Positions 19,713-31,570 are shown, counted from the stretch's first letter. The stretch: 55,163 nucleotides of DNA from an uncultured virus (IMG/VR IMGVR_UViG_3300028641_000003) (IMGVR_UViG_3300028641_000003); one strand, 5' to 3'. Notes: a model not told the origin generated them from the letters alone. Made by a program: numbers and translations.

Positions 19713-19715
19713 ATA

Positions 19716-20048: not shown

Positions 20049-20062
20049 CTTAGCTTCAAACT

Positions 20063-20139: not shown

Positions 20140-20143
20140 ATAA

Positions 20144-20218: not shown

Positions 20219-20335
20219 AAAAGACCACACCGTTTCTGCATTGTTAAGAGGCTGGTATGGTGCTACTGAACGACCACTCATGGTTGAGCATCTTAGAGAG
20301 GCTTGAGTGGGGCGGAGCCGTTTCATGCTCCTTAT

Positions 20336-20414
20336 TGGTGGGCAAGGTGGGAATCGAACCCGACCTCAACAACTTTATCAGAGTTGCACTAGCATACCAG
20401 CTAGACTCTTGCCC
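20336..20414 (-). tRNA. tRNA-Ile(GAT)
   Basis: CAACT-CTGATAA-AGTTG; bulged T stem. Confidence 0.82.
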
Positions 20415-20627
20415 AAAAATGTACCAACTTCACGCATCGGTCCATGAGCATTCAAATAAGGTTCTTCCATTGAAGGAAATGAATGATCTTATAGGAGACA
20501 GGGTGCTACCCTGGCTGAACAGCGGCGTTAAGGATCCCCTTCCGGGTCCAAGTGGATTTATTCTCCCCTCGACATGGAGATTTTGGTGGTGGATATATTT
20601 TAAGACCGCTACCGCCACACGGTCTGC

Positions 20628-20702
20628 TGGCACCCCAGGAAGGACTCGCACCTTTCATCTTCGGTTTCGTAGACCGACGTTCTTCTGTTATACTACCGGG
20701 GT
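20628..20702 (-). tRNA. tRNA-Arg(ACG)
   Basis: TCGGT-CTACGAA-ACCGA. Confidence 0.87.
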
Positions 20703-20709
20703 ATGAGAA

Positions 20710-20780
20710 TGGCAGGCAATCGTGGTGCTTACCCACGCTGATCTTCGTTCGAAGCGATGATTGCTCTCGGAGCATTGCCC
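20710..20780 (-). tRNA. Atypical compact tRNA-Arg(TCG)
   Basis: GGGCAAT/ATTGCCT-GCCA, loop CT-TCG-AA. Confidence 0.6.
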
Positions 20781-20791
20781 ATGAAAAAGAT

Positions 20792-20929
20792 TGTAGCAAG
20801 ACGGCTACATAAGCCGCATTCATCATCAAGATAACTACCCGTCCTGGGAACTTAATCGTGGGACTTCAACCCCCGTAGTTAGGCTCTTTATTTCCCCTTG
20901 ATGTGTCTTTATGTTTAGACGATTGCTAC
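20792..20929 (-). ncRNA. tRNA-like RNA with large anticodon-arm insertion
   Basis: GTAGCAA/TTGCTAC, D stem GTCT/AGAC, CATCAAG/CTTGATG. Confidence 0.5.
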
Positions 20930-20930
20930 T

Positions 20931-21118
20931 TGGTGGGGGAGGTTGGATTCGAACCAACATGCCTCATCGGAACTTATCAGTTAAGTCCCACGCCTTACGC
21001 TCGTTGGGTAATTACTCCGTATGAGCATCGTGGGTTGAATTCTCTATTGTGAGTAACGTTATCTCTCACAGAAAATTCGTTTGTTCAACGAGTCGCTTTG
21101 CCATTAGCGTACTCCCCC
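20931..21118 (-). ncRNA. 188-nt Tyr-like tRNA scaffold with ~100-nt insertion
   Basis: GGGGGAG/CTCCCCC-ACCA, normal D and T arms. Confidence 0.65.
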
Positions 21119-21169
21119 AAAAGATGAAGGTTGCTTGCGTTAGTGGAAGCGAGCCTACAAACCTACGCA

Positions 21170-21243
21170 TGGTGGGCAATAAGGGAATCAAACCCCTGTA
21201 TTCTGAACGTCAATCAGATGTTCTATCATTGAACTAATCGCCC
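21170..21243 (-). tRNA. tRNA-Val(GAC)
   Basis: TCTGA-TTGACGT-TCAGA. Confidence 0.87.
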
Positions 21244-21246
21244 ATA

Positions 21247-21280
21247 AATCAAACTACGCTATAGAGTTGTTAAACGAAGC
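21247..21280 (-). promoter_or_regulatory. boxA-like + AGCGTAGTTTG motif preceding tRNA runs (copies at 22698, 29242, 30145, 30638)
   Basis: YTTYACAA-like N7-9 AGCGTAGTTTG repeated five times, each just 5' of a tRNA. Confidence 0.65.
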
Positions 21281-21372
21281 ATTCGCTTCGTGGCTCTACT
21301 ATAAGAGGTCTTCTGTGTAATACAATAGGAGCGACACACATACATCAGGAGTGTATCACACAGAAGCTTTGC

Positions 21373-21461
21373 TGGCGGAATCACACTGAATCGAACAGTC
21401 CAGACCTTCAAGCCTGGGGACGGCTTTCGAAACCGATTGAACACCTTGTTCCCGTGACTCC
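21373..21461 (-). tRNA. 8/4 allo-type tRNA-Ser(CGA)
   Basis: 8-bp acceptor GGAGTCAC/GTGATTCC, 4-bp T stem, long arm, G73. Confidence 0.78.
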
Positions 21462-21468
21462 AAAACTT

Positions 21469-21561
21469 TGGCGGATAGAGAGGGATTCGAACCCCCGGTG
21501 CCCGTTAAAAGGCACTTCGGTTTTCAAAACCGACGCAATCGACCTACTCTGCCATCTATCC
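21469..21561 (-). tRNA. tRNA-Ser(TGA)
   Basis: TCGGT-TTTGAAA-ACCGA, G73. Confidence 0.9.
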
Positions 21562-21565
21562 ATGC

Positions 21566-21952
21566 CTACATCCATAATCTACCTAATCTTTTTTCAAATA
21601 GCTTTTGAGCCTTTAAAAACATCTTTGCGTCCTCCGCACATAAAGATGGATATACTTGAGGTTTCTCTTTACTAGGAAGACGAGTAACAGTGGAGAAGCC
21701 ATCTATCATTGCCTTCAAGTCCCTGACAAGTTTCTTGTCTTGCTTATCATCTGGATGCATCTTATGAAGATACATCTTGAGACGAGGAACTATCCAGCTA
21801 CAAAAGGCAACATCCAAGTTTATTATTTCTTCGGCTCGGATTGCTTTGTTGCTCACGATATCATCAGCGAGTTTGAGAAGGCTCTCATTTTTTTCTCTGA
21901 GCTTCTCGTTTTCTTCTTCGAGTTGCTTGATGTATATCTTTTCCTGTGTCAT
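21566..21952 (-). CDS. Hypothetical protein
   Basis: 128 aa; NLD..F..WI.PRL motif; own sigma70-like promoter. Confidence 0.65.
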   Translation of the reverse strand: MTQEKIYIKQLEEENEKLREKNESLLKLADDIVSNKAIRAEEIINLDVAFCSWIVPRLKMYLHKMHPDDKQDKKLVRDLKAMIDGFSTVTRLPSKEKPQVYPSLCAEDAKMFLKAQKLFEKRLGRLWM

Positions 21953-21986
21953 ACACCTATTATAACTATGGTATATGATATATCAA

Positions 21987-22076
21987 TGGTGGAGTAAGGA
22001 GTAATCGAAACTCTGCCCCCTTGCGGCGACCTTTCGCTTTCCAGGCGAACGCATCTCCCCGATGCTTCTCTACTCC
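21987..22076 (-). tRNA. 8/4-type tRNA-Ser(GGA)
   Basis: Bulged 8-bp acceptor, 4-bp T stem, TTCGC-CTGGAAA-GCGAA, A73. Confidence 0.72.
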
Positions 22077-22082
22077 ATGAAA

Positions 22083-22364
22083 TTAACCGCCAAGTATCTT
22101 ATCAAAATCAAACTTATCTTTGATAAACTTATGAAAAAACTGACCTTTACTTGGTGAAAATTTAAATTTATCTTTTAAGAATCTTGATATGTTGTTATAA
22201 GCATATACTACAGAAGGGTCGCCTTCAAACCTAATATACAATATTTTTTTCTTACGTGAATATCCAGATTGGATAATAGCAGTCGAATCAACATTTGTTG
22301 GTGTTAAATTGGCTTCTTCAAGTTTCTTCCAAGTTTCTTGGAGATGTTTATGAATATTATCCAT
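22083..22364 (-). CDS. KTSC-domain protein
   Basis: VDSTAI...GY...LYIRF...YAY.....SPSKGQFFHKFIK; start re-called after TATAAATA. Confidence 0.8.
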   Translation of the reverse strand: MDNIHKHLQETWKKLEEANLTPTNVDSTAIIQSGYSRKKKILYIRFEGDPSVVYAYNNISRFLKDKFKFSPSKGQFFHKFIKDKFDFDKILGG

Positions 22365-22383
22365 GTATTCATATTTATAAAAT

Positions 22384-22457
22384 TGGTGCTGCTCCAAGGA
22401 ATCGAACCTTGTTTCCCTACATACCAAGCAGGTGTAATACCAGTATACTAGAGCAGC
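22384..22457 (-). tRNA. tRNA-Thr(GGT)
   Basis: CCTGC-TTGGTAT-GTAGG. Confidence 0.87.
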
Positions 22458-22462
22458 ATAAG

Positions 22463-22602
22463 ACCAGAGAAGAGATTGGGAGCAACAGTGTTTTTGCCGC
22501 TCTGCCGTTGAGCTACCTCACCGTTTGTGGTGAGGGTAGGATTCGAACCTACATCCTGCTCCTTATAATGGAAGTAACCGTCACAATGACTACTTCTCTG
22601 GT
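22463..22602 (-). ncRNA. YrlA-like Y RNA (permuted T arm - closed acceptor - D arm on a long stem)
   Basis: GTAGG-TTCGAAT-CCTAC, CCTCACC-acaaac-GGTGAGG, TAGCTCAACGGCAGAGC inside CCAGAGAAG/CTTCTCTGG. Confidence 0.7.
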
Positions 22603-22604
22603 TT

Positions 22605-22695
22605 TGGTGGAAGGTGGGAGAATCGAACTCCATTCCCATTAAAGGGAACAATTTCTTTAGCAAAGAATTCCAGTACCACACTGGTTCTACCTTCC
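22605..22695 (-). tRNA. 8/4-type tRNA-Ser(GCT) with Sec-like D arm
   Basis: GGAAGGT(A)G/CACCTTCC, 6-bp D stem, 4-bp T stem, loop TT-GCT-AA. Confidence 0.72.
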
Positions 22696-22722
22696 ATAAT
22701 CAAACTACGCTTATAATGTTGT

Positions 22723-22759
22723 AAAAAGAAAAACCCCGACTTTTTGAGTCAGGGTTTTC
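22723..22759 (-). terminator. Attenuator terminator of tRNA block 2
   Basis: AAAACCCTGACT-CAAAA-AGTCGGGGTTTT-TCTTTTT. Confidence 0.85.
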
Positions 22760-22787
22760 AGAGGGTGCCTATTTTTAGGTCTTTCTC

Positions 22788-22892
22788 TTACTTACCTGAC
22801 TCCTGAGTAATAAAATCAGAGAGACGGCGACTCGACAACCATGATGGTTGGAGTTGCTGGACTGGCTGATGGGTGGGTAGGAGGTTAATCAT
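22788..22892 (-). CDS. Leader peptide 2 MINLLPTHQPVQQLQPSWLSSRRLSDFITQESGK
   Basis: Lies between late promoter (22906-22913) and terminator; its GAGTCAGG is complementary to the terminator 5' arm. Confidence 0.75.
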   Translation of the reverse strand: MINLLPTHQPVQQLQPSWLSSRRLSDFITQESGK

Positions 22893-22994
22893 AATGTTCT
22901 ATCTTTATTTATATGCGTATTCTAACATGTCCTGAGAAAAATACAATAAGTATTTTTACCATTGCGTAGTTTGTAATGTTTATAAGGACTTACA

Positions 22995-23270
22995 TCAACT
23001 TTCCGAAAGGTCATCTTGAACTTCTTTACGAATAACTTCTTCGAGAAGACCATGCTCATCCTTCCACTTGGAAGCACAGCCAGGAATCTTATGCCCGTGG
23101 CATAACCCGCAGTCAGTACGACCACAGTCACAGGGATGCTTGACGGCAAGCCTATTTTTTTCATTTTCAAAATACTTAACTCGTTTCTTATCCGTTTCCT
23201 TCAAAAACTTTAAACGGTTGTCTGCAACTCGTTTCGTCTGTGATCTGCGCCATACTCGACTGCGTTTCAT
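22995..23270 (-). CDS. Small basic Cys-rich protein
   Basis: AAGGAG RBS; HPCDCG..CGLC motif. Confidence 0.7.
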   Translation of the reverse strand: MKRSRVWRRSQTKRVADNRLKFLKETDKKRVKYFENEKNRLAVKHPCDCGRTDCGLCHGHKIPGCASKWKDEHGLLEEVIRKEVQDDLSES

Positions 23271-23294
23271 GTAATTCTCCTTGTTAATAAAGCT

Positions 23295-23369
23295 TGGTGC
23301 TACTTGAGAGATTTGAACTCCCGACCTTCTGTTTACAAAACAGATACACTACCACTGTGTTAAAGTAGC
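23295..23369 (-). tRNA. tRNA-Thr(TGT)
   Basis: TCTGT-TTTGTAA-ACAGA. Confidence 0.9.
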
Positions 23370-23373
23370 ATAA

Positions 23374-23448
23374 TGGTGCCCCCACCACGACTCTCACATG
23401 GCTTTCCGGAGTACAAAACCGGTGTGTCGATATCTACACTTTAGGGGC
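23374..23448 (-). tRNA. tRNA-Thr(TGT)
   Basis: loop TT-TGT-AC; atypical T loop. Confidence 0.78.
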
Positions 23449-23480
23449 ATATGCCTCCCACTGAAGGGAGGTCTTGTAAT

Positions 23481-23810
23481 TTACTTCAAAAGCGACAGCT
23501 TACCGAAAATAGCTTTGGACACTTCGTTGTCGATGGGTTCAAAAGCAGTTGCGGTTTCTGCGTTAGACATATCGGGTTCTATGAAGGTGGTGTATGATAA
23601 CTCCATTCTGTCATAGAGTGCCTTTATGCTTGCAATTTCGTTATCCGTTGCGGAGAGAAGAATCATTGTCTTGTGGTTGTTCACCCAATCAATGACTTTG
23701 GGCTTCTGTCCGTGTTGTGCCATAAACTCGGCAGCCGCGTGGCTACTCTGTACAGCACAATGAGTTAACGGAAGTATATCTCGTCTGATGAGGATGAACA
23801 TCTTAAGCAT
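23481..23810 (-). CDS. Peptidyl-tRNA hydrolase, Pth2-like
   Basis: KMFILIRRD...AVQSSHAA..W...K..ILL...F.EPD....TA.AFEP...KLSLL; GGAGG RBS. Confidence 0.8.
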   Translation of the reverse strand: MLKMFILIRRDILPLTHCAVQSSHAAAEFMAQHGQKPKVIDWVNNHKTMILLSATDNEIASIKALYDRMELSYTTFIEPDMSNAETATAFEPIDNEVSKAIFGKLSLLK

Positions 23811-23814
23811 TTTG

Positions 23815-24201
23815 CTATATACCTCCGGTGCCACAGGCACACTCGGGTATGAGAGCATCTTGTTTCTCCTTGACGTAATCTTCCATTCTCTTACGAATGA
23901 TTTCAGAAGACTGAACATATTCTTTTTCTCTCTCTTCGTTTAAGTGGCACTTACCACGAACCTGTCCATACGCTATATGCATACAAGTAGTCCGGTACTT
24001 ATCGTTGCGGATTGCGTTCTCTGCACACCACCAGTATTTTTCACCTGATGTATCGTAGGGGTAGGCATTGCCTGGAAGTCCAGTTGATGCACTACGCTGG
24101 TTGCGGCGTAAAGCCTGTTTGTTGTGAGCAAGTCTCTCAGCGAGAGTCTTGATTTCGCTGCGGAAAAATTCCATTGCGAGTTTATGTTGGGTTATATCCA
24201 T
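23815..24201 (-). CDS. Hypothetical protein co-transcribed with Pth2
   Basis: 128 aa; R..HIAYG..RG-type motif. Confidence 0.7.
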   Translation of the reverse strand: MDITQHKLAMEFFRSEIKTLAERLAHNKQALRRNQRSASTGLPGNAYPYDTSGEKYWWCAENAIRNDKYRTTCMHIAYGQVRGKCHLNEEREKEYVQSSEIIRKRMEDYVKEKQDALIPECACGTGGI

Positions 24202-24253
24202 GATTTTATTCCTTAAGGTTGATTGTTGAGTTTACGAACTACAGACAATCAGC

Positions 24254-24301
24254 TTATGGAGGACCACGAATCAGCTACCCATACTCTTTGTTCTAACGCA
24301 T
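24254..24301 (-). promoter_or_regulatory. Leader ORF MR*NKEYG*LIRGPP* with two in-frame UAGs
   Basis: AAGAAAGGA RBS; final TAA lies in the 5' arm of a hairpin reaching the next RBS. Confidence 0.65.
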
Positions 24302-24333
24302 AGCTATCCTTTCTTGTTGAGGTTAATACGACA

Positions 24334-24409
24334 TGGTGCTTCCGGTGGGATTTTAACCCACAACCAAGCGGTTTAGAATCGCTTGCTCTTTCATTTGAGC
24401 TACGGAGGC
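24334..24409 (-). tRNA. Amber suppressor tRNA (CTA)
   Basis: AGCG(A)-TTCTAAA-(C)CGCT, intact cloverleaf, ACCA. Confidence 0.8.
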
Positions 24410-24414
24410 ATGAA

Positions 24415-24489
24415 TGGTGCCCATCTCTGGTAACGCTCCAGATTCTCTACGATACGAATGTAGTGCATCGCTTTTAATGCTTGATGGGC
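24415..24489 (-). tRNA. tRNA-Thr(CGT)
   Basis: loop TT-CGT-AT. Confidence 0.8.
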
Positions 24490-24493
24490 AAAA

Positions 24494-24568
24494 TGGTCGT
24501 GGTGGTGGGAATCGAACCCACTAGGAGCGGCTTATGAAACCGCCGTCCATCCATTGAACTTCACCACG
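24494..24568 (-). tRNA. tRNA-Met/Ile2(CAT)
   Basis: GCGGT-TTCATAA-GCCGC. Confidence 0.82.
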
Positions 24569-24571
24569 AGA

Positions 24572-24835
24572 CGGGGTATGTTATTTCTTACATCTGCATA
24601 CACCCCATGATATGCGGACTTCGATGTTACCTATAATAGATCCCTGACTTTGGCTTAGGGGGAGTAACATTTCCTCTAAGCCCACTGGCTTTTTGATAGG
24701 GTCAACCAGATGGGTAATAATTAGTAGGACAGTCACATGGCATGAGTAATGGGCAACCTAACTTGCCACCATGAATTACACTGAACTCTTTTTACGGGAA
24801 AGATAACCCATCATGTAAGTGTTACATCAACCCTA
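24572..24835 (-). ncRNA. Unassigned ~260-nt structured RNA
   Basis: Ends pair (CTTACAT/ATGTAAG, GGG/CCC); internal GGCTTAG/CTAAGCC. Confidence 0.4.
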
Positions 24836-24854
24836 CATTTGCCTTGCGGCTATA

Positions 24855-24929
24855 TGGCACCCAAACTAGGACTTGCACCTAGAAGAATTCTTTAGGAAAG
24901 AATCAGTTTTCTATTTAGCTTATTCGGGC
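24855..24929 (-). tRNA. tRNA-Arg(CCT)
   Basis: ATTCT-TTCCTAA-AGAAT. Confidence 0.82.
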
Positions 24930-25237
24930 ATGATGAGGAAGCTTCGGGTGTATTCTATAGAATAGAAAACTTGTCCGAAGCGTCTATGCGGTTAGAAGAG
25001 TCCTCTTTCTCTACTAACTGTTCGCGATCCTAAACTCGTATCTCGGTCGTTACTCTCGGAGCCGCATATAAAGTGTCATTTAGGACACGAGTCCACTTTA
25101 CAGGAAGTTCCGTGAGTTGTTCATAGGAACTTCAGCTAATAACCCGTTTCAGTATGACCACATGGTGGTTCAAACCATATTTCTATGGCTACTTAACGAG
25201 CCAACCATATCAACTCATTCCGGTTGGGTTTGAGAAA

Positions 25238-25300
25238 GAGCCGAGATTAATCGCAACGGTGTGTTTTTCCAAAGAAGTAACCGTTACATGACTGCGGTTC
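25238..25300 (-). ncRNA. Minimal Y-like RNA (same stem family as 22463-22602)
   Basis: GCAGTCA.GTAACGGTTACTTC...AAACAC.CCGTTGC...AATCTC. Confidence 0.6.
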
Positions 25301-25454
25301 AGGTGGTAATAGTATTCACTACAAGATTCGTTGGGCATTCCTATGCCTATCTTAGAACCTTCCACTCTCTCTGTGGCAATACTATTGGTAAGATGACAGG
25401 AGCTTCATATACTCTACTGTCTTTAAAAGTGTCTGTCCGACACTTATATGAAGG

Positions 25455-25540
25455 TGGAATCGCACGGGGGAGTCGAACCCCGGACCTTAACAGTTTTGCA
25501 GACTGCTCCCAGAAACCCTCTGAGATGAAGGGCATGCGAT
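25455..25540 (-). tRNA. 8/4-type tRNA-Cys(GCA), selC*-like
   Basis: ATCGCATG/CGTGCGAT, U73, 4-bp T stem, 6-bp D stem. Confidence 0.75.
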
Positions 25541-25838
25541 TATGCTGTGATACTTTCAAGAAAGCTATATCCTTGCCCACCAACACTGTTGGCTACTCAG
25601 ACCTCTCTTGTTGCTTGTCACCCCTTAGTATCATAGAGGCTCGCTTAACGTTTGGGACCGTTTTCCAGATGAAAGACTGGTATGTACTTGCAGCGATTTC
25701 GCAATCCTTTGCGGTTTCACTTGCTCCAGATAAAGACCGCCTTTCACCTTCTAGTGGCGCGGCAATAATCTTCAAGTATTGCAAGAATCCCCTTCAATCC
25801 TTGTACAGTCACAAGTAGTCCTTTTTCAAGGGACGAGT

Positions 25839-25914
25839 TGGTGCAGGTTGTCGGAATCGAACCGACGCCTTCTGATTGGAAGTCAGGCATGCTACCACTG
25901 GACACCAAACCTGC
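25839..25914 (-). tRNA. tRNA-Gly(TCC)
   Basis: loop CT-TCC-AA. Confidence 0.87.
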
Positions 25915-25919
25915 ATAAA

Positions 25920-26031
25920 TGGTGCGCCGGGATGGAATTTAACCACCTTCCCCCTTAACTTACAGGCAACTCGCTACGCGCAGCTTGCTGCTAGTTTTTT
26001 GTAAGGCGCTCTAACGATGAGCTACCAACGC
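25920..26031 (-). ncRNA. tRNA scaffold with ~40-nt anticodon-arm insertion
   Basis: GCGTTGG/CCGGCGC-ACCA, GCTC/GAGC D stem. Confidence 0.55.
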
Positions 26032-26036
26032 ATATT

Positions 26037-26210
26037 TTTCTGTGTGTCTTCCATCCTTTTCTTTTAAGTGTTCTGACCAAACTTCGTCTCACACACCTTC
26101 CTGTTTCAAGGCACTCAATGACATAAGTATAGCCAAGTTAAGAGGAATGGACTTAGGGTTACGGATTGTCATATCTCAAACCAGAAGTAATGGGACATTC
26201 GTCACAGAAA
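26037..26210 (-). ncRNA. Y-like RNA with GNCGAANG motif
   Basis: TTTCTGTG-ACGAATG...TTACTTC...CACAGAAA. Confidence 0.45.
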
Positions 26211-26212
26211 AT

Positions 26213-26287
26213 TGGAGCAGTGTAAGGGAATTGAACCCTTGTATCCAGCTTGGAAGGCTGGCACATAAGCCTCTCTGTCAACACTGC
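26213..26287 (-). tRNA. tRNA-Gly(TCC)
   Basis: CCAGC-CTTCCAA-GCTGG, U73. Confidence 0.88.
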
Positions 26288-26494
26288 ATAGGATCTACTA
26301 TACGCGAGCTAGTAGATGTTTTATTTCTTTCTTTGAATACCACTCATCGTCCCTCGCATCGTAATGGGTGATATGAAATTTAGGCTACTTGGGAATCTTG
26401 TTCGCAAAGGAACCACCCGATGCTACTAGAGACTCCTGTTCACACAGGGTACTTACTCGCCGCAACTGGTTAGGAATTAGCTTTCAATACCGTT

Positions 26495-26614
26495 TGGCTG
26501 GAAAGAAGGGATTCGAACCCCTGACCTAGTGATTATGGTGATGAGCGTAAGAGTTGAACTTACTGATTCCTTTGCCCATTACAGTCACTTGCACTACCGC
26601 TGTGCTACTTTCCA
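26495..26614 (-). tRNA. tRNA-Asn(GTT) with 45-nt minihelix insert (26536-26580)
   Basis: Removal gives AGTGA-CTGTTAA-TCACT; G73. Confidence 0.83.
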
Positions 26615-26620
26615 ATGATT

Positions 26621-26718
26621 TGGCGTTCCCGGTAGGATTTGAACCTACGACCATTGGATTATGGCAGTGATTTGTTAATCACCGAAATCCAAAGCTCTTC
26701 CAACTGAGCTACGAGAAC
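26621..26718 (-). tRNA. tRNA-Arg(TCT) with 22-nt microhelix insert (26662-26683)
   Basis: Removal gives TTGGA-TTTCTAA-TCCAA; A20 present. Confidence 0.83.
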
Positions 26719-26721
26719 ATG

Positions 26722-26800
26722 TGGCACCCATGGTAGGAGTTGAACCTACATGTATCCAGTTAGCTTTCTCCTGCTTAGAAGGCAGGCGGCATACATGGGC
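26722..26800 (-). tRNA. D-arm-less tRNA-Arg(TCT)
   Basis: CCTGC-CTTCTAA-GCAGG; D-loop-like TGGATA in the variable region. Confidence 0.72.
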
Positions 26801-26811
26801 ATGAAGAAATC

Positions 26812-26875
26812 GGGGAGATTAGGAGTTACGGTGTTTTGTTTCATAAGGTGAAGTAACCGTAACAATGACTGCCCC
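26812..26875 (-). ncRNA. Minimal Y-like RNA
   Basis: GGGGCAGTCATTGTTACGGTTACTTC...AAACACCGTAAC...AATCTCCCC. Confidence 0.6.
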
Positions 26876-26883
26876 AAAGGATT

Positions 26884-27001
26884 GTGTTAGCATAGGGGGA
26901 TTCGAACCCAGGCAACATAAGTCGCCTGTTTTACCCGCATGACATTTTAGTGACCGCTATTTGCAGTCTGTCGGATCTACCGCTGAGCTACACGCTAACA
27001 C
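26884..27001 (-). ncRNA. Cys-like tRNA scaffold with insertion, no CCA
   Basis: TAGCTCAGCGGTAGA D loop, CTGCAAA, GGG-TTCGAAT-CCC. Confidence 0.45.
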
Positions 27002-27105
27002 GAAAAGGTGAGTCTCTAGTAGGCTGGCGAGAGGCTACGATGGTTAGTCGTATAAGCGACCTGAAAAAGTCGCTCCACGTTCACTACTAGGCACCCGAAT
27101 TAAAT

Positions 27106-27140
27106 TGGTGGACAGAATTACCTTTTACGATTAGCTGCCC
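27106..27140 (-). ncRNA. Free-standing Ala-type microhelix
   Basis: GGGCAG/CTGTCC-ACCA, G3:U70. Confidence 0.5.
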
Positions 27141-27190
27141 GATCCTAATCAACCATTGTTAGATGGGGAAATGGTATCGAATAACCCCTT

Positions 27191-27266
27191 TGGTGGACAC
27201 AAAGGGAGTCGAACCCTTCACAGATGCATTGCAAGTGCGTCTCGCCCCCACGGAACATGTGTGCCC
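27191..27266 (-). tRNA. tRNA-Ala(TGC)
   Basis: G3:U70, loop CT-TGC-AA. Confidence 0.85.
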
Positions 27267-27330
27267 AAAAATGGTGAAGCTGGTTTCTTTTTATGAGTGA
27301 AACACTTTGCCTCTAACAAAAGTTCTCGTA

Positions 27331-27406
27331 TGGTGGAATGATCCGGCTACGCTCCGGACGCCTCCTGCGTGCAAGGCAGGCGCTCTACTGAATGAGCTAT
27401 CACCCC
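27331..27406 (-). tRNA. tRNA-Ala(TGC)
   Basis: CCTGC-CTTGCAC-GCAGG, G3:U70. Confidence 0.88.
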
Positions 27407-27487
27407 ATGGAAAGCTATATGTTTCTTTTTGTTGACAGGGAAAGAAACTTGTAGAGTCGCTTAGCTTCTACTAGAAAGAACCCACGA

Positions 27488-27563
27488 TGGATGCGGTGGG
27501 CTGGACTTGCACCAGCGATTCCCGCCTTATGAGGGCGGTGAGATGCTACTTCTCTACCCCGCA
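27488..27563 (-). tRNA. tRNA-Met(CAT), initiator-like
   Basis: CCGCC-CTCATAA-GGCGG. Confidence 0.8.
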
Positions 27564-27595
27564 ATGCTGAAGGTTATTAGATACCTACAAACTTT

Positions 27596-27669
27596 TGGAA
27601 GCGCAGAAAGGAGTCGCACCTTTATCTATTGGTTATGAGCCAATTATGCTACTGTTACACCACCGCGCA
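27596..27669 (-). tRNA. tRNA-Met(CAT), initiator-like (1:72 mismatch)
   Basis: ATTGG-CTCATAA-CCAAT. Confidence 0.82.
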
Positions 27670-28418
27670 GTGTTAATACGAATTCTACCCTTTACAAATC
27701 CCATTTCTATATATTTGTTTATGTCATTTTTATTTATTCTAAAACATTCACCAGTTTGAAGATTCTTCACCCATATGAGTTGAGAATATATTTTACCATA
27801 TCTCTCTTTCATAGTGTTTGATAAGTTTTCTCTTGTTTCTTTCGATGACATTCTTTCTTTCATTTTTTGTGAAAGTAATGTCTTAGTTTCGTTACTTCCA
27901 CATTCACTCTCTTTTTTGTATCTTTCTTTTACTGATAATGAGATTTTGTTTCTTACCTCATCATTTATATATCTTTTCTTTGCTCTATCTGACATTTTCT
28001 TTCTCGTTTCATCTGATATAATTCTTGTCTTATTAGTATCTATCATTTTTTGTTTTGATTCTTTCGAGTAGGTTTTTGGTTTCTGACTTATTATGGAGAG
28101 CTTTCTTTTTGTCTCATCAGTGTGATTCTTTCCTCTAAACTTTGGTCCACCTTCGCCACCAACTGATATGTTATAAACATCTTTTCTTTTTATAAAATCT
28201 TCATTCACAATAAGTATTTCCATTTTATCCATTTGCTCTTCGTTGTCAAAAACATGGAGTATTTCTTTTGTAAAGTTACTTCTCCCATATTTCTTAACGG
28301 CAGCCTTTATATGATGTCCGGAACCTAAGTAATCATCGTTGATATTTTCGGTTTGGTGCTTCCCAATGTAAATCTTACCGTTTATCTTATTAGTTATCTT
28401 GTATATGGTATAAAACAT
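27633..28418 (-). CDS. GIY-YIG homing endonuclease, SegB-like with NUMOD3 repeats
   Basis: TIYKITNKINGKIYIGKH, YLGSG, YNI..GG, HTDETKRKLS; 3' end overlaps tRNA-Met; start re-called at AGGAG RBS. Confidence 0.9.
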   Translation of the reverse strand: MFYTIYKITNKINGKIYIGKHQTENINDDYLGSGHHIKAAVKKYGRSNFTKEILHVFDNEEQMDKMEILIVNEDFIKRKDVYNISVGGEGGPKFRGKNHTDETKRKLSIISQKPKTYSKESKQKMIDTNKTRIISDETRKKMSDRAKKRYINDEVRNKISLSVKERYKKESECGSNETKTLLSQKMKERMSSKETRENLSNTMKERYGKIYSQLIWVKNLQTGECFRINKNDINKYIEMGFVKGRIRINTARWCNSSIIGS

Positions 28419-28555
28419 AATACTCCTATTATACCAGTATTTATATTTCATAACCAAACGATTTACTGCTTCTCTATCAAAAATGGGAGCCAACCTAACG
28501 CAAGCTAGGGACACTTTTTACGGCTATCACAACTTACATACGACACAGATGAATC

Positions 28556-28626
28556 AGGGAGATTATTAGCTACGGTGTTTTTTTTTCGTTTTATGTAAAT
28601 GAAGTAACCGTAACAGTGACTGCCCT
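28556..28626 (-). ncRNA. Minimal Y-like RNA
   Basis: AGGGCAGTCACTGTTACGGTTACTTC...AAACACCGTAGC...AATCTCCCT. Confidence 0.6.
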
Positions 28627-28629
28627 AAA

Positions 28630-28705
28630 TGGTACACCCACAGGGAATCGAACCCTGATTAAGAGAATGAAAGTCTCCTGTACTGAGCCATTATACTATG
28701 GGTGC
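28630..28705 (-). tRNA. tRNA-Glu(TTC)
   Basis: GGAGA-CTTTCAT-TCTCT. Confidence 0.87.
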
Positions 28706-28861
28706 ATGTGAGTTACAGAGCCAAATGTAACTCTTATTATATTTACATGGTCGGGTTGGTCCTCCATGGGTCGCTGACAACAGAATTGCTGTGCGAGCCA
28801 ACTCTCCCTCTTGCGAGTTCTATGAGTTGCGCTATCTATTGCTTTGACCGTTCTATACAAC

Positions 28862-28937
28862 TGGTACTCCTTGAGAGACTTGCACTCTACTTTATACGCT
28901 TGAAAGGCGTGTTTCTTACTACATAGAAGAAAGGAGC
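28862..28937 (-). tRNA. tRNA-Glu(TTC)
   Basis: loop CT-TTC-AA. Confidence 0.8.
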
Positions 28938-28988
28938 ATGAACAGAGTTTTTCTTCCGCCAGGAAAAGGAAACTCCAAAACTTTGAGA

Positions 28989-29068
28989 TGGTCCGCGAGG
29001 CTGGATTCGAACCAGCTTGTATCCGTATAACCTTTCAACGATTTATAAGACCGAGGGTGTACTCGCGG
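28989..29068 (-). tRNA. D-arm-less tRNA-Ile(TAT)
   Basis: CGGT-CTTATAA-ATCG; CGGATA in the variable region. Confidence 0.72.
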
Positions 29069-29164
29069 GTAACTTTTCCTCGCATTTCTGCGTTAGGGTC
29101 TAATAGGTTATCAATACAAAGAGATGTAGCAGCGTTTATAGTGAGTTATGCTGCGATCACATTC

Positions 29165-29239
29165 TGGTGGGTCGCCACGGGGTCGATCCGTGTTCCATGG
29201 TTTAAAAGACCATTGCATCAGCCCTAATGCTTGCAACCC
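29165..29239 (-). tRNA. tRNA-Lys(TTT)
   Basis: ATGGT-CTTTTAA-ACCAT. Confidence 0.85.
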
Positions 29240-29336
29240 ATAATACAAACTACGCTATACACTTGTGAAGTCGCTGGCATTGCTGCCGTTGATGATACCA
29301 TCATACAGCCCCTTTCAGGAATGCAAGAGGTAATTT

Positions 29337-29422
29337 TGGTAGGGGTAGTCGGACTTGAACCGACACTCCGGTAAAGGAAGCGGATTTTAAATCCGATGCG
29401 GCTGCCATTACGCCATACCCCC
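29337..29422 (-). tRNA. tRNA-Leu(TAA)
   Basis: CGGA-TTTAAAA-TCCG, long arm. Confidence 0.88.
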
Positions 29423-29440
29423 ATTTTGTCAACAAGAAAT

Positions 29441-29517
29441 TGGTGGGTCCACTCGGTACTGCCCCGAGTCCCTCTGGTTAAGAGCCAGATGCTTACCACT
29501 TTTAGAGCTTTGGACCC
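29441..29517 (-). tRNA. tRNA-Lys(CTT)
   Basis: TCTGG-CTCTTAA-CCAGA. Confidence 0.87.
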
Positions 29518-29588
29518 ATGCCTCCTGTTTATTCCCACTCCTTCGAGTGGACTCACAATGATGTGAGAGGATCAAGAGATTCCTTTGA

Positions 29589-29718
29589 TGGTGTCGTGTG
29601 TAAGATTTTCACTTACCTTGATATCTTAATTGGATATCGTATTTGACTGCTTTTTCTCCTTTTCGTCCTTGGGGGGATCCTTCACCACCCCAGGTCAGAG
29701 AAATAATACGAACACGAC
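29589..29718 (-). ncRNA. tRNA scaffold with large D-arm insertion
   Basis: GTCGTGT/ACACGAC-ACCA, GTAAG/CTTAC T stem. Confidence 0.55.
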
Positions 29719-29719
29719 T

Positions 29720-29794
29720 TGGTAGGCGAGGTAGGTGCTGCCCCTACTACTTCCTGCATGTAAAGCAGGCACTCTGCTGTTGAGTTACGCGCCC
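29720..29794 (-). tRNA. tRNA-Val(TAC)
   Basis: CCTGC-TTTACAT-GCAGG. Confidence 0.87.
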
Positions 29795-29851
29795 ATGTGT
29801 TGGGTTTTTCACTCTTGTGGAGTATAGAAAAACCGTAACAAAACTATTTTT

Positions 29852-29925
29852 TGGCTGCCCCAAAGGGAATCGAACCCCTATGATCTGATTAACAGTCAGA
29901 CATAATACCATTATATGACAGGGCA
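29852..29925 (-). tRNA. tRNA-Asn(GTT)
   Basis: TCTGA-CTGTTAA-TCAGA, G73. Confidence 0.9.
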
Positions 29926-29929
29926 ATGC

Positions 29930-30049
29930 TGGTGGAGTTGATGGGATTCAAACCCATATTTGTCAAATGCCATTTAAGGCGTAAAGATGACTGTCTTTGT
30001 CCTGTTATGTGATGTTGCAACATCCATAAACATTAGACGACTTAACCCC
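29930..30049 (-). ncRNA. Ala-acceptor tRNA-like RNA without a normal anticodon arm
   Basis: GGGGTT/AACTCC-ACCA (G3:U70), T arm ATGGG/CCCAT. Confidence 0.55.
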
Positions 30050-30053
30050 ATAT

Positions 30054-30141
30054 TGGTGGGACCGGTAGGAGTCTCACCTACGGAGCCAATTAAGGCATCG
30101 GTTTTACAGACCGCGCTCGCCATCTACGAGCATACGTTCCC
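30054..30141 (-). tRNA. tRNA-Tyr(GTA)
   Basis: CGGT-CTGTAAA-ACCG, long arm, A73. Confidence 0.85.
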
Positions 30142-30316
30142 ATGAATCAAACTACGTTTATATACTTGTAAAGTCATCAGTCAATCCTATGAGAGTTTTA
30201 ATGTCGCCTGCCGTGTCTTTAGCACGGAGTCTTATGGCTTGCTCTCAGCGGCTTGATGGGTATATCCTAACAGGTATTTTAGGAATGCAAGAAGTATTTT
30301 TTTGAATTCCTGTAAG

Positions 30317-30391
30317 TGGTACTCGTACAGAGACTTGCACTCTGTTTATCCGATTGAGAATCGGGGTTCTTACTACATAGAAGATACGAGC
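30317..30391 (-). tRNA. tRNA-Glu(CTC)
   Basis: loop TT-CTC-AA; paralog of 28862-28937. Confidence 0.82.
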
Positions 30392-30396
30392 ATTAG

Positions 30397-30474
30397 AGCC
30401 TCTGACGGGGATTAGGCACCCCGCTTCCTCCGGTTTACAGTCCGGTGCTTTAAACTAATATAAGCTACAGAAGC
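30397..30474 (-). tRNA. Degenerate tRNA (8-nt loop ACTGTAAA; Tyr/Thr ambiguous)
   Basis: Cloverleaf present, no CCA. Confidence 0.5.
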
Positions 30475-30555
30475 ATGGCTCCGAATTTGTTATTACGCTG
30501 AGTCTATCGGAATACTCTCAGATGCCGCTGTGTTAGAGAGGGGCGGCTCCCCTTA

Positions 30556-30633
30556 TGGTGCGGTAAACAGGACTTGAACCTGCAACATCCACTATGGCAA
30601 AGTGGCGCTCTAATCCAATTGAGCTATTACCGC
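30556..30633 (-). tRNA. tRNA-Gly(GCC)
   Basis: CCACT-TTGCCAT-AGTGG. Confidence 0.88.
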
Positions 30634-30677
30634 ATACTACAAACTACGCTATAGAATTGTGAAAGACATCCGAAACG

Positions 30678-30706
30678 AAAAAAGCCTCTGGTTTGACCAG
30701 AGGCTT
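30678..30706 (-). terminator. Attenuator terminator of tRNA block 1
   Basis: AAGCCTCTGG-TCAAA-CCAGAGGCTT-TTTT. Confidence 0.88.
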
Positions 30707-30734
30707 GTGTATCTCATGAAGAGATAGACAGCCT

Positions 30735-30800
30735 CTAGGAACCCACGCCTTCTGCGTTGGCTCTTTTATATCCTATCTTATTTGTTAAGCAAGTGGTCAT
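30735..30800 (-). CDS. Leader peptide 1 MTTCLTNKIGYKRANAEGVGS
   Basis: TAGGA RBS, late promoter 30844-30851; 21 codons all different; AGAGGCT at the stop pairs with the terminator arm. Confidence 0.78.
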   Translation of the reverse strand: MTTCLTNKIGYKRANAEGVGS

Positions 30801-30835
30801 TGAAGGCGTGTTCCTAAGTGTGTGATACAGGGTTG

Positions 30836-31570
30836 CTATAAAGTATTTATATGGGATATTGTATCACACTTTAAATTTTTTCCTAAACATATTTTAAAGT
30901 AGCTTTCCGATACCTCATAGCCAACATACTCTCTGCCAAGTTTCTCACAGGATTCTGCGACTGTTCCTATGCCCATGAAAGGATCTAGGACAGTATCACC
31001 AGCATCAGTTGATAATTTAATACAGATTTCTGGTAACAATGGATGGAAGGGTGCTGGATGGTCCTTCTGCTTCTTCGGAGGCATGACCCAAACCTCTGAC
31101 CGAAATTCTTTGGGTAGTCTGCTTTTGTATACCTTTGGCTTGCCCTTAGCTAACCAGAATATATATTCAGTGGTTGGAGTCAAAACATCATTCCGTATAT
31201 TAGGAGAGTTTCTTCTGTCAATAATTATAAGCTGATAGAGATTCCACTTTGTCTTGCTCACGATATCGTAGGGGTTGTAGCACTTGTTGCTCTTTCGACG
31301 CATCTTGTGGTTGTAAAACAAAGATCCATCGTCTTTAGTTTTTTCAAATATCTTATCAAGAATCTTTACTTGCCACTCTTGGTATTCACTCTCTGGCATG
31401 TCATCGCCATATACATCATAGTCGATGTTGTGCTTTGACCATATCTGGTTTCCAGTTTTTACCTTCCCCAGCAATCCCTTCTTGTTATAGGGCGGGGAGG
31501 TAATTGTAGTCTGGATGCTATTGTCTGATAGGCTTGAAATACCTTCAAGACAATCCATGTTATAAATCAT
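30836..31570 (-). CDS. DNA methyltransferase (N4-C/N6-A, beta class)
   Basis: TSPPY, HPAPF, VLDPFMGIGT. Confidence 0.9.
   Translation of the reverse strand: MIYNMDCLEGISSLSDNSIQTTITSPPYNKKGLLGKVKTGNQIWSKHNIDYDVYGDDMPESEYQEWQVKILDKIFEKTKDDGSLFYNHKMRRKSNKCYNPYDIVSKTKWNLYQLIIIDRRNSPNIRNDVLTPTTEYIFWLAKGKPKVYKSRLPKEFRSEVWVMPPKKQKDHPAPFHPLLPEICIKLSTDAGDTVLDPFMGIGTVAESCEKLGREYVGYEVSESYFKICLGKNLKCDTISHINTL

What the first reader, a model, noticed from the sequence alone, without database searches (positions are those of the whole stretch)
22723..30851. Two codon-sampling attenuators, each matched to its own tRNA block
Seen: both blocks start with TATAAATA, a leader ORF, an antiterminator arm at the ORF end, a terminator, the boxA-like motif and then tRNAs. 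Block 1 decodes M,T,C,L,N,K,I,G,Y,R,A,E,V, and leader 1 has exactly these plus a last Ser. Block 2 decodes S,T,V,R,I,D,H,F,Q,P,W,L, and leader 2 has all twelve. The match extends to codon boxes: Leu TTA vs CTC/CTA/TTG, Arg AGA vs CGC/CGT, Ile ATA vs ATT and Val GTG vs GTC follow anticodons TAA vs GAG/TAG/CAA, TCT vs ACG, TAT vs GAT and TAC vs GAC. Together the leaders use 41 different codons and all 20 amino acids. Established: trp/his-type attenuation senses one amino acid. Inference: a broad sensor in which loss of any sampled tRNA (e.g. by a host anticodon nuclease) stalls the ribosome and switches on the block that resupplies it. I know of no description of this.
Basis: partly seen in the sequence, partly recalled or inferred. 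Interest (0 to 1): 0.97.

Follow-up and report, generated by a model that had tools for sequence, protein, structure and literature searches.

The report
Leader-ORF attenuators before phage tRNA arrays
An uncultured giant phage places a short open reading frame and a switchable terminator ahead of each of its two tRNA gene arrays, which looks like a translation-sensing valve on tRNA supply; this use of attenuation turned up in none of four literature searches and still needs a bench test.

Summary
The anatomy is real. On the minus strand, each of two units has TATAAATA, an ATG ORF (21 and 34 codons), an arm at the ORF end complementary to the 5' half of a strong intrinsic terminator, a conserved about 30-nt motif, and then a tRNA array. 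The predicted antiterminator hairpins (-21.0 and -21.2 kcal/mol) beat the terminators (-17.6 and -14.9). Among 11 strong terminators in the 112.8-kb sister record, these two have the strongest upstream competitor arms.

Both leaders are nearly invariant in about 90%-identical relatives, while the flanking tRNAs differ by 30%. The same layout heads tRNA arrays in three other uncultured phage lineages.

Best reading (about 0.5): these are ribosome-dependent attenuators. Finishing the leader ORF causes termination; stalled or absent translation lets transcription read into the tRNAs.

This is only partly supported. It is significant here (leader 1 p = 2e-4 to 3e-3; leader 2 p = 0.004 to 0.013 after composition control). 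It is not reproduced in relative G007 and cannot be tested in G008. Translation is unproven: leader 2 has no Shine-Dalgarno. The "boxA-like" motif looks more like a sigma-70 promoter and remains unexplained.

The parts
30844..30851 (-). TATAAATA, T4-late-promoter-like box of unit 1. It lies inside the last codons of the methylase gene 30836-31570.
   Evidence: 12 of 13 copies on the gene strand; copies lie 13-43 nt upstream of ATGs. The T4 late-promoter consensus is recalled, not tested.
30735..30800 (-). Leader ORF 1: 21 codons plus TAG. All 21 sense codons are different. A weak SD-like AGGA sits 11 nt upstream (30812-30815).
   Evidence: 20 of 20 non-start codons distinct, p=0.008; identical peptide in L001.
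30693..30737 (-). Antiterminator hairpin 1. Its 5' arm TAGAGGCT starts at the stop codon, and its 3' arm is the 5' half of the terminator. An inner hairpin is kept in L001.
   Evidence: -21.0 kcal/mol; competitor duplex -16.0, 3 of 500 shuffles as good.
30676..30706 (-). Intrinsic terminator 1: 11-bp stem, 3-nt loop, T run.
   Evidence: (-17.6 kcal/mol).
30634..30664 (-). Conserved motif TTCACAATTCTATAGCGTAGTTTGTAGTAT, abutting the 5' end of tRNA-Gly(GCC). It is sigma-70-promoter-like (TTCACA-18-TAGTAT). Function unresolved.
   Evidence: Other copies lie at 30146-30175, 29240-29270, 22696-22726 and 21244-21274.
23295..30633 (-). tRNA block 1, with a GIY-YIG endonuclease gene, a PTH2 gene and small ORFs interspersed. 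Anticodons: GCC, CTC, GTT, TAC, CTT, TAA, TTT, TTC, CAT x3, TGC x2, TCG/CGG, GTA, TCC x2, CCT, CGT, CTA, TGT x2. Weak tRNA-likes: TCT, GCA, TAT, GTA.
22906..22913 (-). TATAAATA box of unit 2, only 13 nt upstream of the leader-2 ATG.
22788..22892 (-). Leader ORF 2: 34 codons plus TAA, C-rich (31% C), with no Shine-Dalgarno.
   Evidence: L211 peptide differs only by N3T.
22742..22802 (-). Antiterminator hairpin 2. Its 5' arm GAGTCAGG lies in codons 31-33 and pairs with CCTGACTC of the terminator.
   Evidence: -21.2/-21.5 kcal/mol; duplex -11.0, p=0.042.
22729..22759 (-). Intrinsic terminator 2: 13 pairs, 5-nt loop, T run.
   Evidence: (-14.9 kcal/mol).
22696..22726 (-). Second copy of the conserved motif (TTTACA-18-GATTAT), abutting tRNA-Ser(GCT).
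   Evidence: 1 substitution against L211.
14242..22695 (-). tRNA block 2, plus the tmRNA gene (14420-14794). Anticodons: GCT, GGT, TGA, GAC, ACG, GAT, GTC x2, GTG x2, ATG, GAA, CTG, TTG x2, TGG, TAG x2, CCA, ACT, GAG. Weak: GGA, CGA.

Best explanation
Each unit is a ribosome-dependent (leader-ORF) transcription attenuator at the head of a phage tRNA array.

Shown by the sequence and folds: RNA made from the TATAAATA box, or from upstream genes, carries a short ORF. The last codons or stop codon of that ORF overlap the 5' arm of an antiterminator hairpin. That hairpin uses the 5' half of a strong intrinsic terminator, so the two structures exclude each other.

Inferred mechanism: a ribosome that reaches the stop codon promptly covers the arm, so the terminator forms and transcription stops before the tRNAs. 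A ribosome that stalls earlier in the ORF, or no ribosome at all, leaves the arm free. The more stable antiterminator then forms and RNA polymerase reads into the array.

Because the leaders are codon-diverse rather than runs of one codon, the signal would be general decoding capacity (shortage of any of many tRNAs), not one amino acid. This would feed back on tRNA supply. Whether each leader is tuned to its own block is a further, weaker inference.
For: 1. Both units have the same order of parts but unrelated sequences.
2. The antiterminators fold at -21.0 and -21.2 kcal/mol against terminators at -17.6 and -14.9. With a ribosome footprint placed at the stop codon, the predicted fold keeps the terminator; with the footprint at some upstream codons (4 and 16 in L1; 10, 19 and 25 in L2) it switches to the antiterminator.
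3. Among 11 strong terminators in the 112.8-kb sister record, these two have the lowest shuffle p for an upstream competitor arm (0.006 and 0.042; the other nine range 0.09-0.85).
4. Conservation starts at the ATG. Against L211, the ORF has 2 substitutions in 105 nt and stop-to-tRNA has 1 in 92, versus 23 in the 107 nt upstream and 28 in 91 nt of tRNA-Ser. Against L001, the ORF has 2 in 66 versus 22 in 74 nt of tRNA-Gly.
5. Three of the 4 ORF substitutions are synonymous; the peptides are identical (L001) or differ by N3T (L211).
6. The layout recurs at the head of tRNA arrays in G007, G008/G009/G010 and G004. In G007 (39-codon ORF with a good SD) and G008 an arm sits in or just before the last codons; in G004 it ends 24 nt before the stop. 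The antiterminators fold at -19.6, -20.9 and -44.4 kcal/mol against terminators at -20.5, -15.2 and -18.5.
7. Three leaders share the start ATGAC(CAC)TTG.
8. Context: the phage also carries tmRNA and PTH2, two rescue factors for stalled ribosomes.
9. Leader-to-block match in this phage: 19 of 20 and 29 of 33 non-start residues are in the set, and all set members are covered. At codon level, the own block decodes 13 of 20 and 26 of 33 codons, against 2 of 20 and 5 of 33 for the other block.
Against: - No expression or translation data exist: RNA contigs of two runs do not cover the leaders.
- Most genes of this phage have an SD 5-10 nt before the ATG. Leader 2 has none and starts 13 nt after TATAAATA; leader 1's AGGA is 11 nt away.
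- There is no run of regulatory codons, unlike the classical leaders.
- Thermodynamic folds with a footprint at other upstream codons still give the terminator.
- A sigma-70-promoter-like motif lies right after each terminator. In G007 it reads TTTACA-17-TATAAT. The arrays may therefore have their own promoters, with the terminators simply closing upstream operons.
- Near-total nucleotide conservation also fits a structured small RNA.
- ORF-near-arm geometry arises in 7-19% of shuffles per unit.
- Codon matching is not reproduced in G007. In L211, GTC became GTA, a codon read by the other block's tRNA.
Confidence: 0.5

Rival explanations
1. The units are stand-alone late genes for small RNAs or micro-peptides. 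TATAAATA drives a 165-175-nt transcript that ends at its own terminator. The tRNA arrays are driven separately from the promoter-like motif just downstream. The alternative hairpin is simply part of the small RNA's structure.
For: Promoter plus about 170 nt plus a strong terminator is the usual shape of an sRNA gene. The folds are more stable than shuffles (z = -4.4 and -3.4). Conservation is almost complete at the nucleotide level, synonymous sites included. A sigma-70-like motif follows each terminator. Small stable RNAs within the T4 tRNA cluster are a precedent that I recall, not one I checked.
Against: There is no Rfam match. The alternative hairpin specifically consumes the terminator's 5' arm in all five units, although their sequences are unrelated. 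Conservation begins at the ATG, not at the promoter. An in-frame 3-nt difference separates the L1 and G007 starts. The units always sit at the head of a tRNA array.
Confidence: 0.2
2. This is an ordinary operon boundary. The terminators end the upstream operons (RNR-methylase; block 1), the motif is the next promoter, the short ORFs are chance, and the codon match is a by-product of composition.
For: Both terminators are the first strong terminators after upstream genes. Other frames of the leader-2 region are also 76-79% block-2 amino acids by my own count from the translations, against 88% for the ORF. 4.6% of genome windows are as C-rich as leader 2. ORF-near-arm geometry appears in 7-19% of shuffles.
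Against: The ORF bodies are 10-15 times better conserved than the flanking tRNAs and upstream spacers. Antiterminator arms are absent from the other 9 strong terminators. Leader 1 has 20 of 20 distinct codons (p=0.008) and joint match p = 2e-4 to 3e-3.
Confidence: 0.1
3. The units are attenuators switched by something other than the ribosome: a phage or host RNA-binding protein, a tRNA, or polymerase speed chooses between the two hairpins, and the ORFs are irrelevant.
For: The terminator/antiterminator pair is solid, while ribosome loading on leader 2 is doubtful.
Against: There is no T-box or other riboswitch match. No repeated protein-binding motif was seen in the leaders. In four of the five units the ORF stop lies within or at most 11 nt past the arm; in G004 it is 24 nt past it. 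Substitutions are mostly synonymous.
Confidence: 0.1

Closest known systems
Leader-peptide attenuators of amino-acid operons (trpL, hisL, thrL, ilvL, leuL, pheL) and of pheST (pheM)
   Same: A short ORF lies near the promoter, followed by an intrinsic terminator and a mutually exclusive antiterminator. The position of the ribosome on the ORF decides which structure forms. pheM also controls a gene of the translation apparatus. (Family features are recalled. PMC3082878 and PMC4046918 were seen as search listings and abstract openings only.)
   Different: There is no run of codons for one amino acid; instead the codons are maximally diverse. The regulated genes are tRNAs rather than enzymes. The element is in a phage and sits behind a T4-late-type box. 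No clear 1:2 pause hairpin was identified.
Antibiotic-responsive ribosome-stalling attenuators (e.g. mef/mel(msrD), PMC4335068; yxjB, PMC6851288; search listings only)
   Same: A leader ORF is paired with a terminator/antiterminator switch. Any slowing of the ribosome on the leader opens the downstream genes, which makes them general translation sensors.
   Different: The trigger there is a drug acting on the ribosome and the output is a resistance gene. Here the presumed trigger is decoding shortage and the output is tRNA.
Phage tRNA arrays as counter-defence against tRNA-cleaving systems (PMC10264068, PMC11555353; abstract openings seen in the listing)
   Same: A large phage-encoded tRNA set that could replace depleted host tRNAs.
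   Different: Judging by the listings and abstract openings alone, those papers concern the tRNAs themselves. No conditional control of their transcription was found in four searches.
rrn / lambda boxA antitermination elements
   Same: By eye, CTTTCACAA resembles the recalled boxA core CTTTAACAA.
   Different: The motif lies after the terminator, not before it. It occurs 5 times, each abutting a tRNA 5' end. It scores as a sigma-70 -35/-10 pair. The consensus is recalled, and no test supports boxA function.

Membership tests
Ribosome-dependent leader-peptide transcription attenuator | Short ORF with a usable start, close to the transcript's 5' end | tested here: inconclusive
   ATG ORFs of 21 and 34 codons lie 43 and 13 nt after TATAAATA. 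SD is weak in L1 and absent in L2, whereas most of the 35 genes listed have an SD. The G007 homologue has AGAGGGAA 7 nt upstream.
Ribosome-dependent leader-peptide transcription attenuator | Intrinsic terminator between the leader ORF and the regulated genes | tested here: met
   Stems of 11 and 13 pairs with T runs; these are the two strongest of 33 sites in 13000-32000. They fold at -17.6 and -14.9 kcal/mol.
Ribosome-dependent leader-peptide transcription attenuator | Mutually exclusive antiterminator that uses the terminator's 5' arm | tested here: met
   Energies are -21.0 and -21.2 kcal/mol. Competitor arms have shuffle p of 0.006 and 0.042, the two lowest among 11 strong terminators.
Ribosome-dependent leader-peptide transcription attenuator | ORF end placed so that a terminating ribosome masks the antiterminator arm | tested here: met
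   The stop codon starts at the arm (L1), 4 nt after it (L2), directly after it (G007) and 11 nt after it (G008). In G004 it is 24 nt after the arm, inside the long hairpin. Shuffles give such an ORF in 7-19% of trials per unit.
Ribosome-dependent leader-peptide transcription attenuator | Tandem regulatory codons for the sensed amino acid | tested here: not met
   There is no run. L1 has 21 different codons in 21 positions; L2 has 26 in 34.
Ribosome-dependent leader-peptide transcription attenuator | Read-through depends on leader translation and rises on tRNA shortage | not testable with these tools
   The phage is uncultured. RNA contigs do not cover the leaders.
T4-type late promoter | TATAAATA box shortly upstream of late genes, recognised by a gp55-type sigma factor | tested here: inconclusive
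   The box is enriched and strand-biased: 12 of 13 copies on the gene strand, upstream of baseplate-region and other ORFs. The baseplate wedge protein is distantly T4-like. A gp55 homologue was not searched for.
T-box or other known RNA leader (Rfam) | Match to a curated covariance model | tested here: not met
   No family reaches its threshold on either leader. The best is the rnk leader at 25.6 bits against a gathering score of 55, E=0.58.
boxA antitermination element | Conserved boxA sequence located upstream of the terminators it overrides | tested here: not met
   The motif lies downstream of both terminators and also at three internal sites. The consensus was compared from memory only.

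The most novel reading that the evidence does not exclude
Each leader is a multiplexed codon sensor tuned to its own tRNA block. Loss of any sampled tRNA, for instance through a host anticodon nuclease, stalls the ribosome on the single cognate codon and opens exactly the block that carries the replacement. The family would then evolve by re-writing the leader whenever the block's content changes. One hint fits this: the G007 leader reads like a leader-1 half joined to a leader-2 half, ahead of a merged block.
Probability: 0.2. Interest if true: 0.92.

Novelty: new variant of a known kind. Interest (0 to 1): 0.72.

Why it matters
Phage tRNA arrays are now discussed as a counter-measure to tRNA-cleaving defences and as codon-usage aids, but how their expression is controlled is barely studied. 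A translation-sensing valve on tRNA transcription would be a direct feedback between decoding capacity and tRNA supply. It would extend leader-peptide attenuation from sensing one amino acid to sensing decoding in general.

The element is small (about 220 nt) and modular, and it can be tested in reporter constructs without culturing the phage. If the codon-to-block tuning is real, it would also be a natural multiplexed biosensor for tRNA depletion.

Tried and rejected
- Near search of the 8.4-kb region in 50,697 phage records found no match.
- Distant searches with the leader-2 unit and the G007 unit gave only 30-40-nt chance hits, E of 0.3 or more.
- A tblastn of the baseplate protein gave only 6 distant cyanophage hits.
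- A 14-mer scan for TATAGCGTAGTTTG in viral contigs returned 121+ single matches, judged chance because each locus holds one copy; only the later hit sets were checked for tRNAs.
- Of the 78 RNR-based loci, only 1 (L001) carries the leader.
- Methylase and PTH2 scans of viral contigs found only L001 and a second copy of the same genome.
- Terminator-pattern scans: 4 of 5 leader-2-type hits and 2 of 8 leader-1-type hits are in tRNA contexts; the other 7 are ordinary gene-end terminators.
- The motif-pattern scan gave 2 hits, one of them an unrelated locus without tRNAs.
- The TATAAATA...ATGAC...TTGCTTA scan gave 29 loci, of which 27 are chance and 2 were already known.
- L213 (PTH2 78% identical) has no block 2 and no leader 2; its array ends at a plain terminator.
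- The other TATAAATA copies in the window and in G007 precede ordinary protein genes.
- The earlier-findings look-up returned nothing.
- Sequencing runs: two metatranscriptome runs hold contigs over the GIY-YIG gene and some tRNA spacers but none over either leader. Contigs cannot show starts or ends. Run X18 holds an 85-90% relative of both leaders, but its letters across the leaders were not listed.
- The leader peptides are too short for the protein search.
- A swap test of leaders against blocks has only two units and so no power; I did not use it.

Full report
**What the window is**

The window is part of an uncultured giant phage from activated sludge.
- It carries a gp6/gpJ-like baseplate protein, a class of ribonucleotide reductase, several DNA methylases, homing endonucleases and a PTH2 peptidyl-tRNA hydrolase.
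- It has a tmRNA gene (14420-14794, 108.7 bits) and about 40-55 tRNA or tRNA-like genes, all on the minus strand between 14.2 and 30.6 kb.
- The virus record G001 (112,822 bases, estimated 37% complete) is the same genome: 100% identical over both leaders.
- The only similarity to cultured phages is a distant match of the baseplate wedge protein to T4-like cyanophages.
- DNA runs that hold the stretch are activated-sludge metagenomes.

**The observation**

Both units exist as described, on the minus strand.

| Part | Unit 1 | Unit 2 |
|---|---|---|
| TATAAATA | 30851-30844 | 22913-22906 |
| ORF | 30800-30735, MTTCLTNKIGYKRANAEGVGS, stop TAG | 22892-22788, MINLLPTHQPVQQLQPSWLSSRRLSDFITQESGK, stop TAA |
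| Antiterminator arm | TAGAGGCT at 30737-30730 | GAGTCAGG at 22802-22795 |
| Terminator | 30706-30682 plus T run | 22759-22729 |
| Motif | 30664-30634 | 22726-22696 |
| First tRNA | Gly(GCC) from 30633 | Ser(GCT) from 22695 |

- In both units TATAAATA starts exactly 218 nt before the tRNA.
- TATAAATA occurs 13 times in the window, 12 of them on the gene strand. Shuffles give a mean of 6.8, and 2 of 100 reach 13.
- Most copies lie 13-43 nt upstream of start codons.
- This matches the T4 late-promoter consensus as I recall it.

**tRNA content**

ARAGORN, Rfam and a cloverleaf parse of my own agree on most anticodons.
- Block 1 decodes G, E, N, V, K, L, M, A, R, Y and T with good support.
- Cys rests on a gene with a ~44-nt insertion, found only by my relaxed parse.
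- Ile rests on a tRNA-like gene with loop CUUAUAA, scoring 17 bits.
- Arg-TCT rests on a 39.6-bit Rfam hit whose anticodon loop I read by eye.
- Leu-CAA was not found.
- Block 1 also holds an amber suppressor (CTA).
- One gene in block 1 reads either as Arg-TCG with a 22-nt insertion or as Pro-CGG.
- Many genes in this region are non-canonical, so the sets are good but not exact.

**Is the leader-to-block match more than chance?**

| Measure | Leader 1 | Leader 2 |
|---|---|---|
| Non-start residues in own block's set | 19 of 20 | 29 of 33 |
| Set members covered | 12 of 12 non-Met | 12 of 12 |
| Joint p, random peptides with this phage's amino-acid usage | 1.2e-4 | 1.1e-5 |
| Joint p, shuffling the ORF's own bases | 2.1e-4 | 4.1e-3 |
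| Joint p, shuffling within codon positions | 2.8e-3 | 1.3e-2 |
| Codons decoded by own block, confident anticodons | 13 of 20 | 26 of 33 |
| Codons decoded by the other block | 2 of 20 | 5 of 33 |

- Leader 2 is C-rich (31% C; 4.6% of genome windows are as rich).
- By my count from the translations, its two other frames are also 76-79% block-2 amino acids, against 88% for the ORF.
- Leader 1 has 20 of 20 distinct non-start codons (p=0.008). Leader 2 has 25 of 33 (p=0.34).
- The outsiders sit where a stall could not matter. In leader 1 the only one is the last Ser. In leader 2, E31, G33 and K34 lie in or after the arm, and only N3 lies in the body.
- The match is therefore real for leader 1 and modest for leader 2. 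All of it is post hoc.

**Structure**

- Without the terminator's 3' arm, both leaders fold into a long hairpin that joins the ORF end to the terminator's 5' arm: -21.0 and -21.2 kcal/mol, against -17.6 and -14.9 for the terminators.
- The whole leaders fold better than shuffles (z = -4.4 and -3.4).
- I found 11 strong terminators in G001. These two have the strongest upstream competitor for the 5' arm: -16.0 (p=0.006) and -11.0 (p=0.042). The other nine have p of 0.09-0.85.
- With a ribosome footprint masked at the stop codon, the predicted fold keeps the terminator. With the footprint at some upstream codons it switches to the antiterminator, and at others it does not.
- With no ribosome, leader 1's UTR-to-ORF-end helix is compatible with the antiterminator. 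The default state is therefore probably read-through.

**Close relatives**

- L001 (RNR 93% identical) keeps leader 1. The peptide is identical, with two synonymous changes (GTG to GTA, TCC to TCT). The terminator, the arm and the inner hairpin stems are kept, and the changes fall in loops.
- L211 (PTH2 87% identical) keeps leader 2 with two changes. AAC to ACC (N3 to T) removes the only in-body outsider. GTC to GTA is synonymous but moves to a codon read by block 1's Val-TAC.
- Segment counts:

| Segment | Leader 2 vs L211 | Leader 1 vs L001 |
|---|---|---|
| Upstream of the ATG | 23 substitutions + 3 gap columns in 107 nt | 10 + 2 gap columns in 120 nt |
| ORF | 2 in 105 nt | 2 in 66 nt |
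| Stop to tRNA | 1 + 1 gap in 92 nt | 19 in 101 nt |
| First tRNA | 28 in 91 nt (tRNA-Ser) | 22 + 4 gap columns in 74 nt (tRNA-Gly) |

- The count of 19 is inflated by a one-base alignment offset; by eye I count about 8 differences.
- The constrained element starts at the ATG.
- The tRNA content of these relatives is essentially the same, so they cannot test covariation.

**Other phages**

Pattern scans for the two terminators found the same layout at the head of tRNA arrays elsewhere.

*G007* (133 kb, from the same sample series):
- It has a sigma-70-like promoter, TATAAATA and the SD AGAGGGAA.
- The ORF is MTCLSLNTKYNKQNMAPKYCHITSLSVDSFSDRIGGIQR.
- The arm TCCAGAGG lies in the last codons. 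The antiterminator folds at -19.6 and the terminator at -20.5 kcal/mol.
- After the terminator come the motif as TTTACA-17-TATAAT, a second hairpin with a T run, and then 23 tRNA genes decoding 15 amino acids.
- Its leader contains all 15 of those amino acids and lacks E and W, which the block also lacks.
- However, 32 of 38 residues in the set is what chance gives (81% expected, p=0.38; coverage p=0.057).
- Its two Cys and two Tyr codons have no cognate tRNA gene anywhere in the record (26 Rfam hits).

*G008, G009 and G010* (identical over the region):
- These carry the arm GTCAGGGT and the leader-2-type terminator.
- The ORF ends 11 nt after the arm. It is 16 codons from the nearest ATG, or 60 codons from ATGACTTGG.
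- The array behind it covers all 20 amino acids, so matching cannot be tested.

*G004* (RNR 63% identical, 45 tRNAs):
- An 85-nt hairpin (-44.4 kcal/mol) overlaps a terminator (-18.5 kcal/mol). A 57-codon ORF ends inside the hairpin's 5' side.
- An 84-codon gene lies between this element and the first tRNA.

Three of the leaders begin ATGAC(CAC)TTG, which suggests one evolving family.

**Against translation, and the motif**

- Most of the 35 genes I listed have an SD 5-10 nt before the ATG. Leader 1 has AGGA at 11 nt, and leader 2 has nothing and a ~6-nt 5' UTR if the box is the promoter.
- The motif after each terminator scores as a sigma-70 promoter.
- GCGTAGTTTG, the motif's core, occurs 6 times in G001, all inside the tRNA region.
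- Five full copies directly abut tRNA 5' ends. A start site there would fall inside the tRNA.
- I could not decide whether the motif is a promoter, a processing signal or a protein site.
- If it is an early promoter, the attenuators would gate only late or read-through transcription.

**Literature**

Four full-text searches listed no paper, by title or abstract opening, on a leader-ORF attenuator before tRNA genes, in phages or elsewhere. The library lacks most subscription journals. I saw only listings and abstract openings and opened no paper.

**Verdict**

The units are real, conserved, recurrent regulatory elements. The best-supported mechanism is ribosome-dependent attenuation of read-through into the tRNA arrays, acting as a general sensor of decoding (about 0.5). 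The block-specific codon tuning is an attractive but unproven refinement (about 0.2).

Noticed in passing
window 14420-14794 (-): A full-length tmRNA gene (Rfam 108.7 bits, model 1-374) sits at the far end of tRNA block 2. Together with the PTH2 gene at 23481-23918, the phage carries two ribosome-rescue functions inside its tRNA region.
   Followed up: partly
window 24334-24409 (-); also L212 278-353 and 600-674, L211 1254-1328, G004, G008: Amber-suppressor tRNA (anticodon CTA) is present in this phage and its relatives. Leader 1 ends in TAG, and read-through would extend it by 6 codons to a TGA at 30714-30716, over the antiterminator. Long ORFs look intact under code 11, so general TAG recoding seems unlikely.
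   Followed up: no
window 26621-26718, 26495-26614, 25924-26031, 29934-30049, 18959-19076, 17902-18000 (all -): Several tRNA genes carry 22-46-nt insertions in or next to the anticodon loop, too short for group I introns. The 98-nt form is also present in L001 (12572-12669). Whether these are introns, extra arms or decayed genes is open.
   Followed up: partly
window 30634-30664, 30146-30175, 29240-29270, 22696-22726, 21244-21274 (-); partial copies on + at 13679 and 22965: A ~30-nt motif, TTyACAA..TATAGCGTAGTTTGwwkTAT, occurs five times and each copy ends exactly at a tRNA 5' end. Its core GCGTAGTTTG is found nowhere else in the 112.8-kb record. It is sigma-70-promoter-like, but the implied start site would fall inside the tRNA.
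   Followed up: partly
window 20273-20310 (-): An Rfam abiF RNA motif hit above threshold (41.6 bits against a gathering score of 37) lies between tRNA genes of block 2.
   Followed up: no
window 27633-28514 (-) and 14869-15708 (-): GIY-YIG/NUMOD3 and HNH homing-endonuclease genes are inserted among the tRNA genes. The GIY-YIG gene is covered without differences by contigs of two metatranscriptome runs (X21, X22).
   Followed up: partly
window 29318-29335 and 30270-30290 (+ strand coordinates): A second repeated module (CTTGCATTCCTrAAA on the gene strand) lies 70-130 nt upstream of two internal copies of the motif. This suggests repeated inter-tRNA spacer cassettes.
   Followed up: no
L234 7812-7841 (G007): In G007 a second hairpin with a T run (12-bp stem) lies between the promoter-like motif and the first tRNA, giving two terminator-like structures in tandem.
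   Followed up: no
window ends versus G001: The window starts at G001 base 63762, and its last 40 bases match G001 bases 1-39. The two assemblies are therefore circular permutations of each other, and the window holds about 6 kb that G001 lacks.
   Followed up: no
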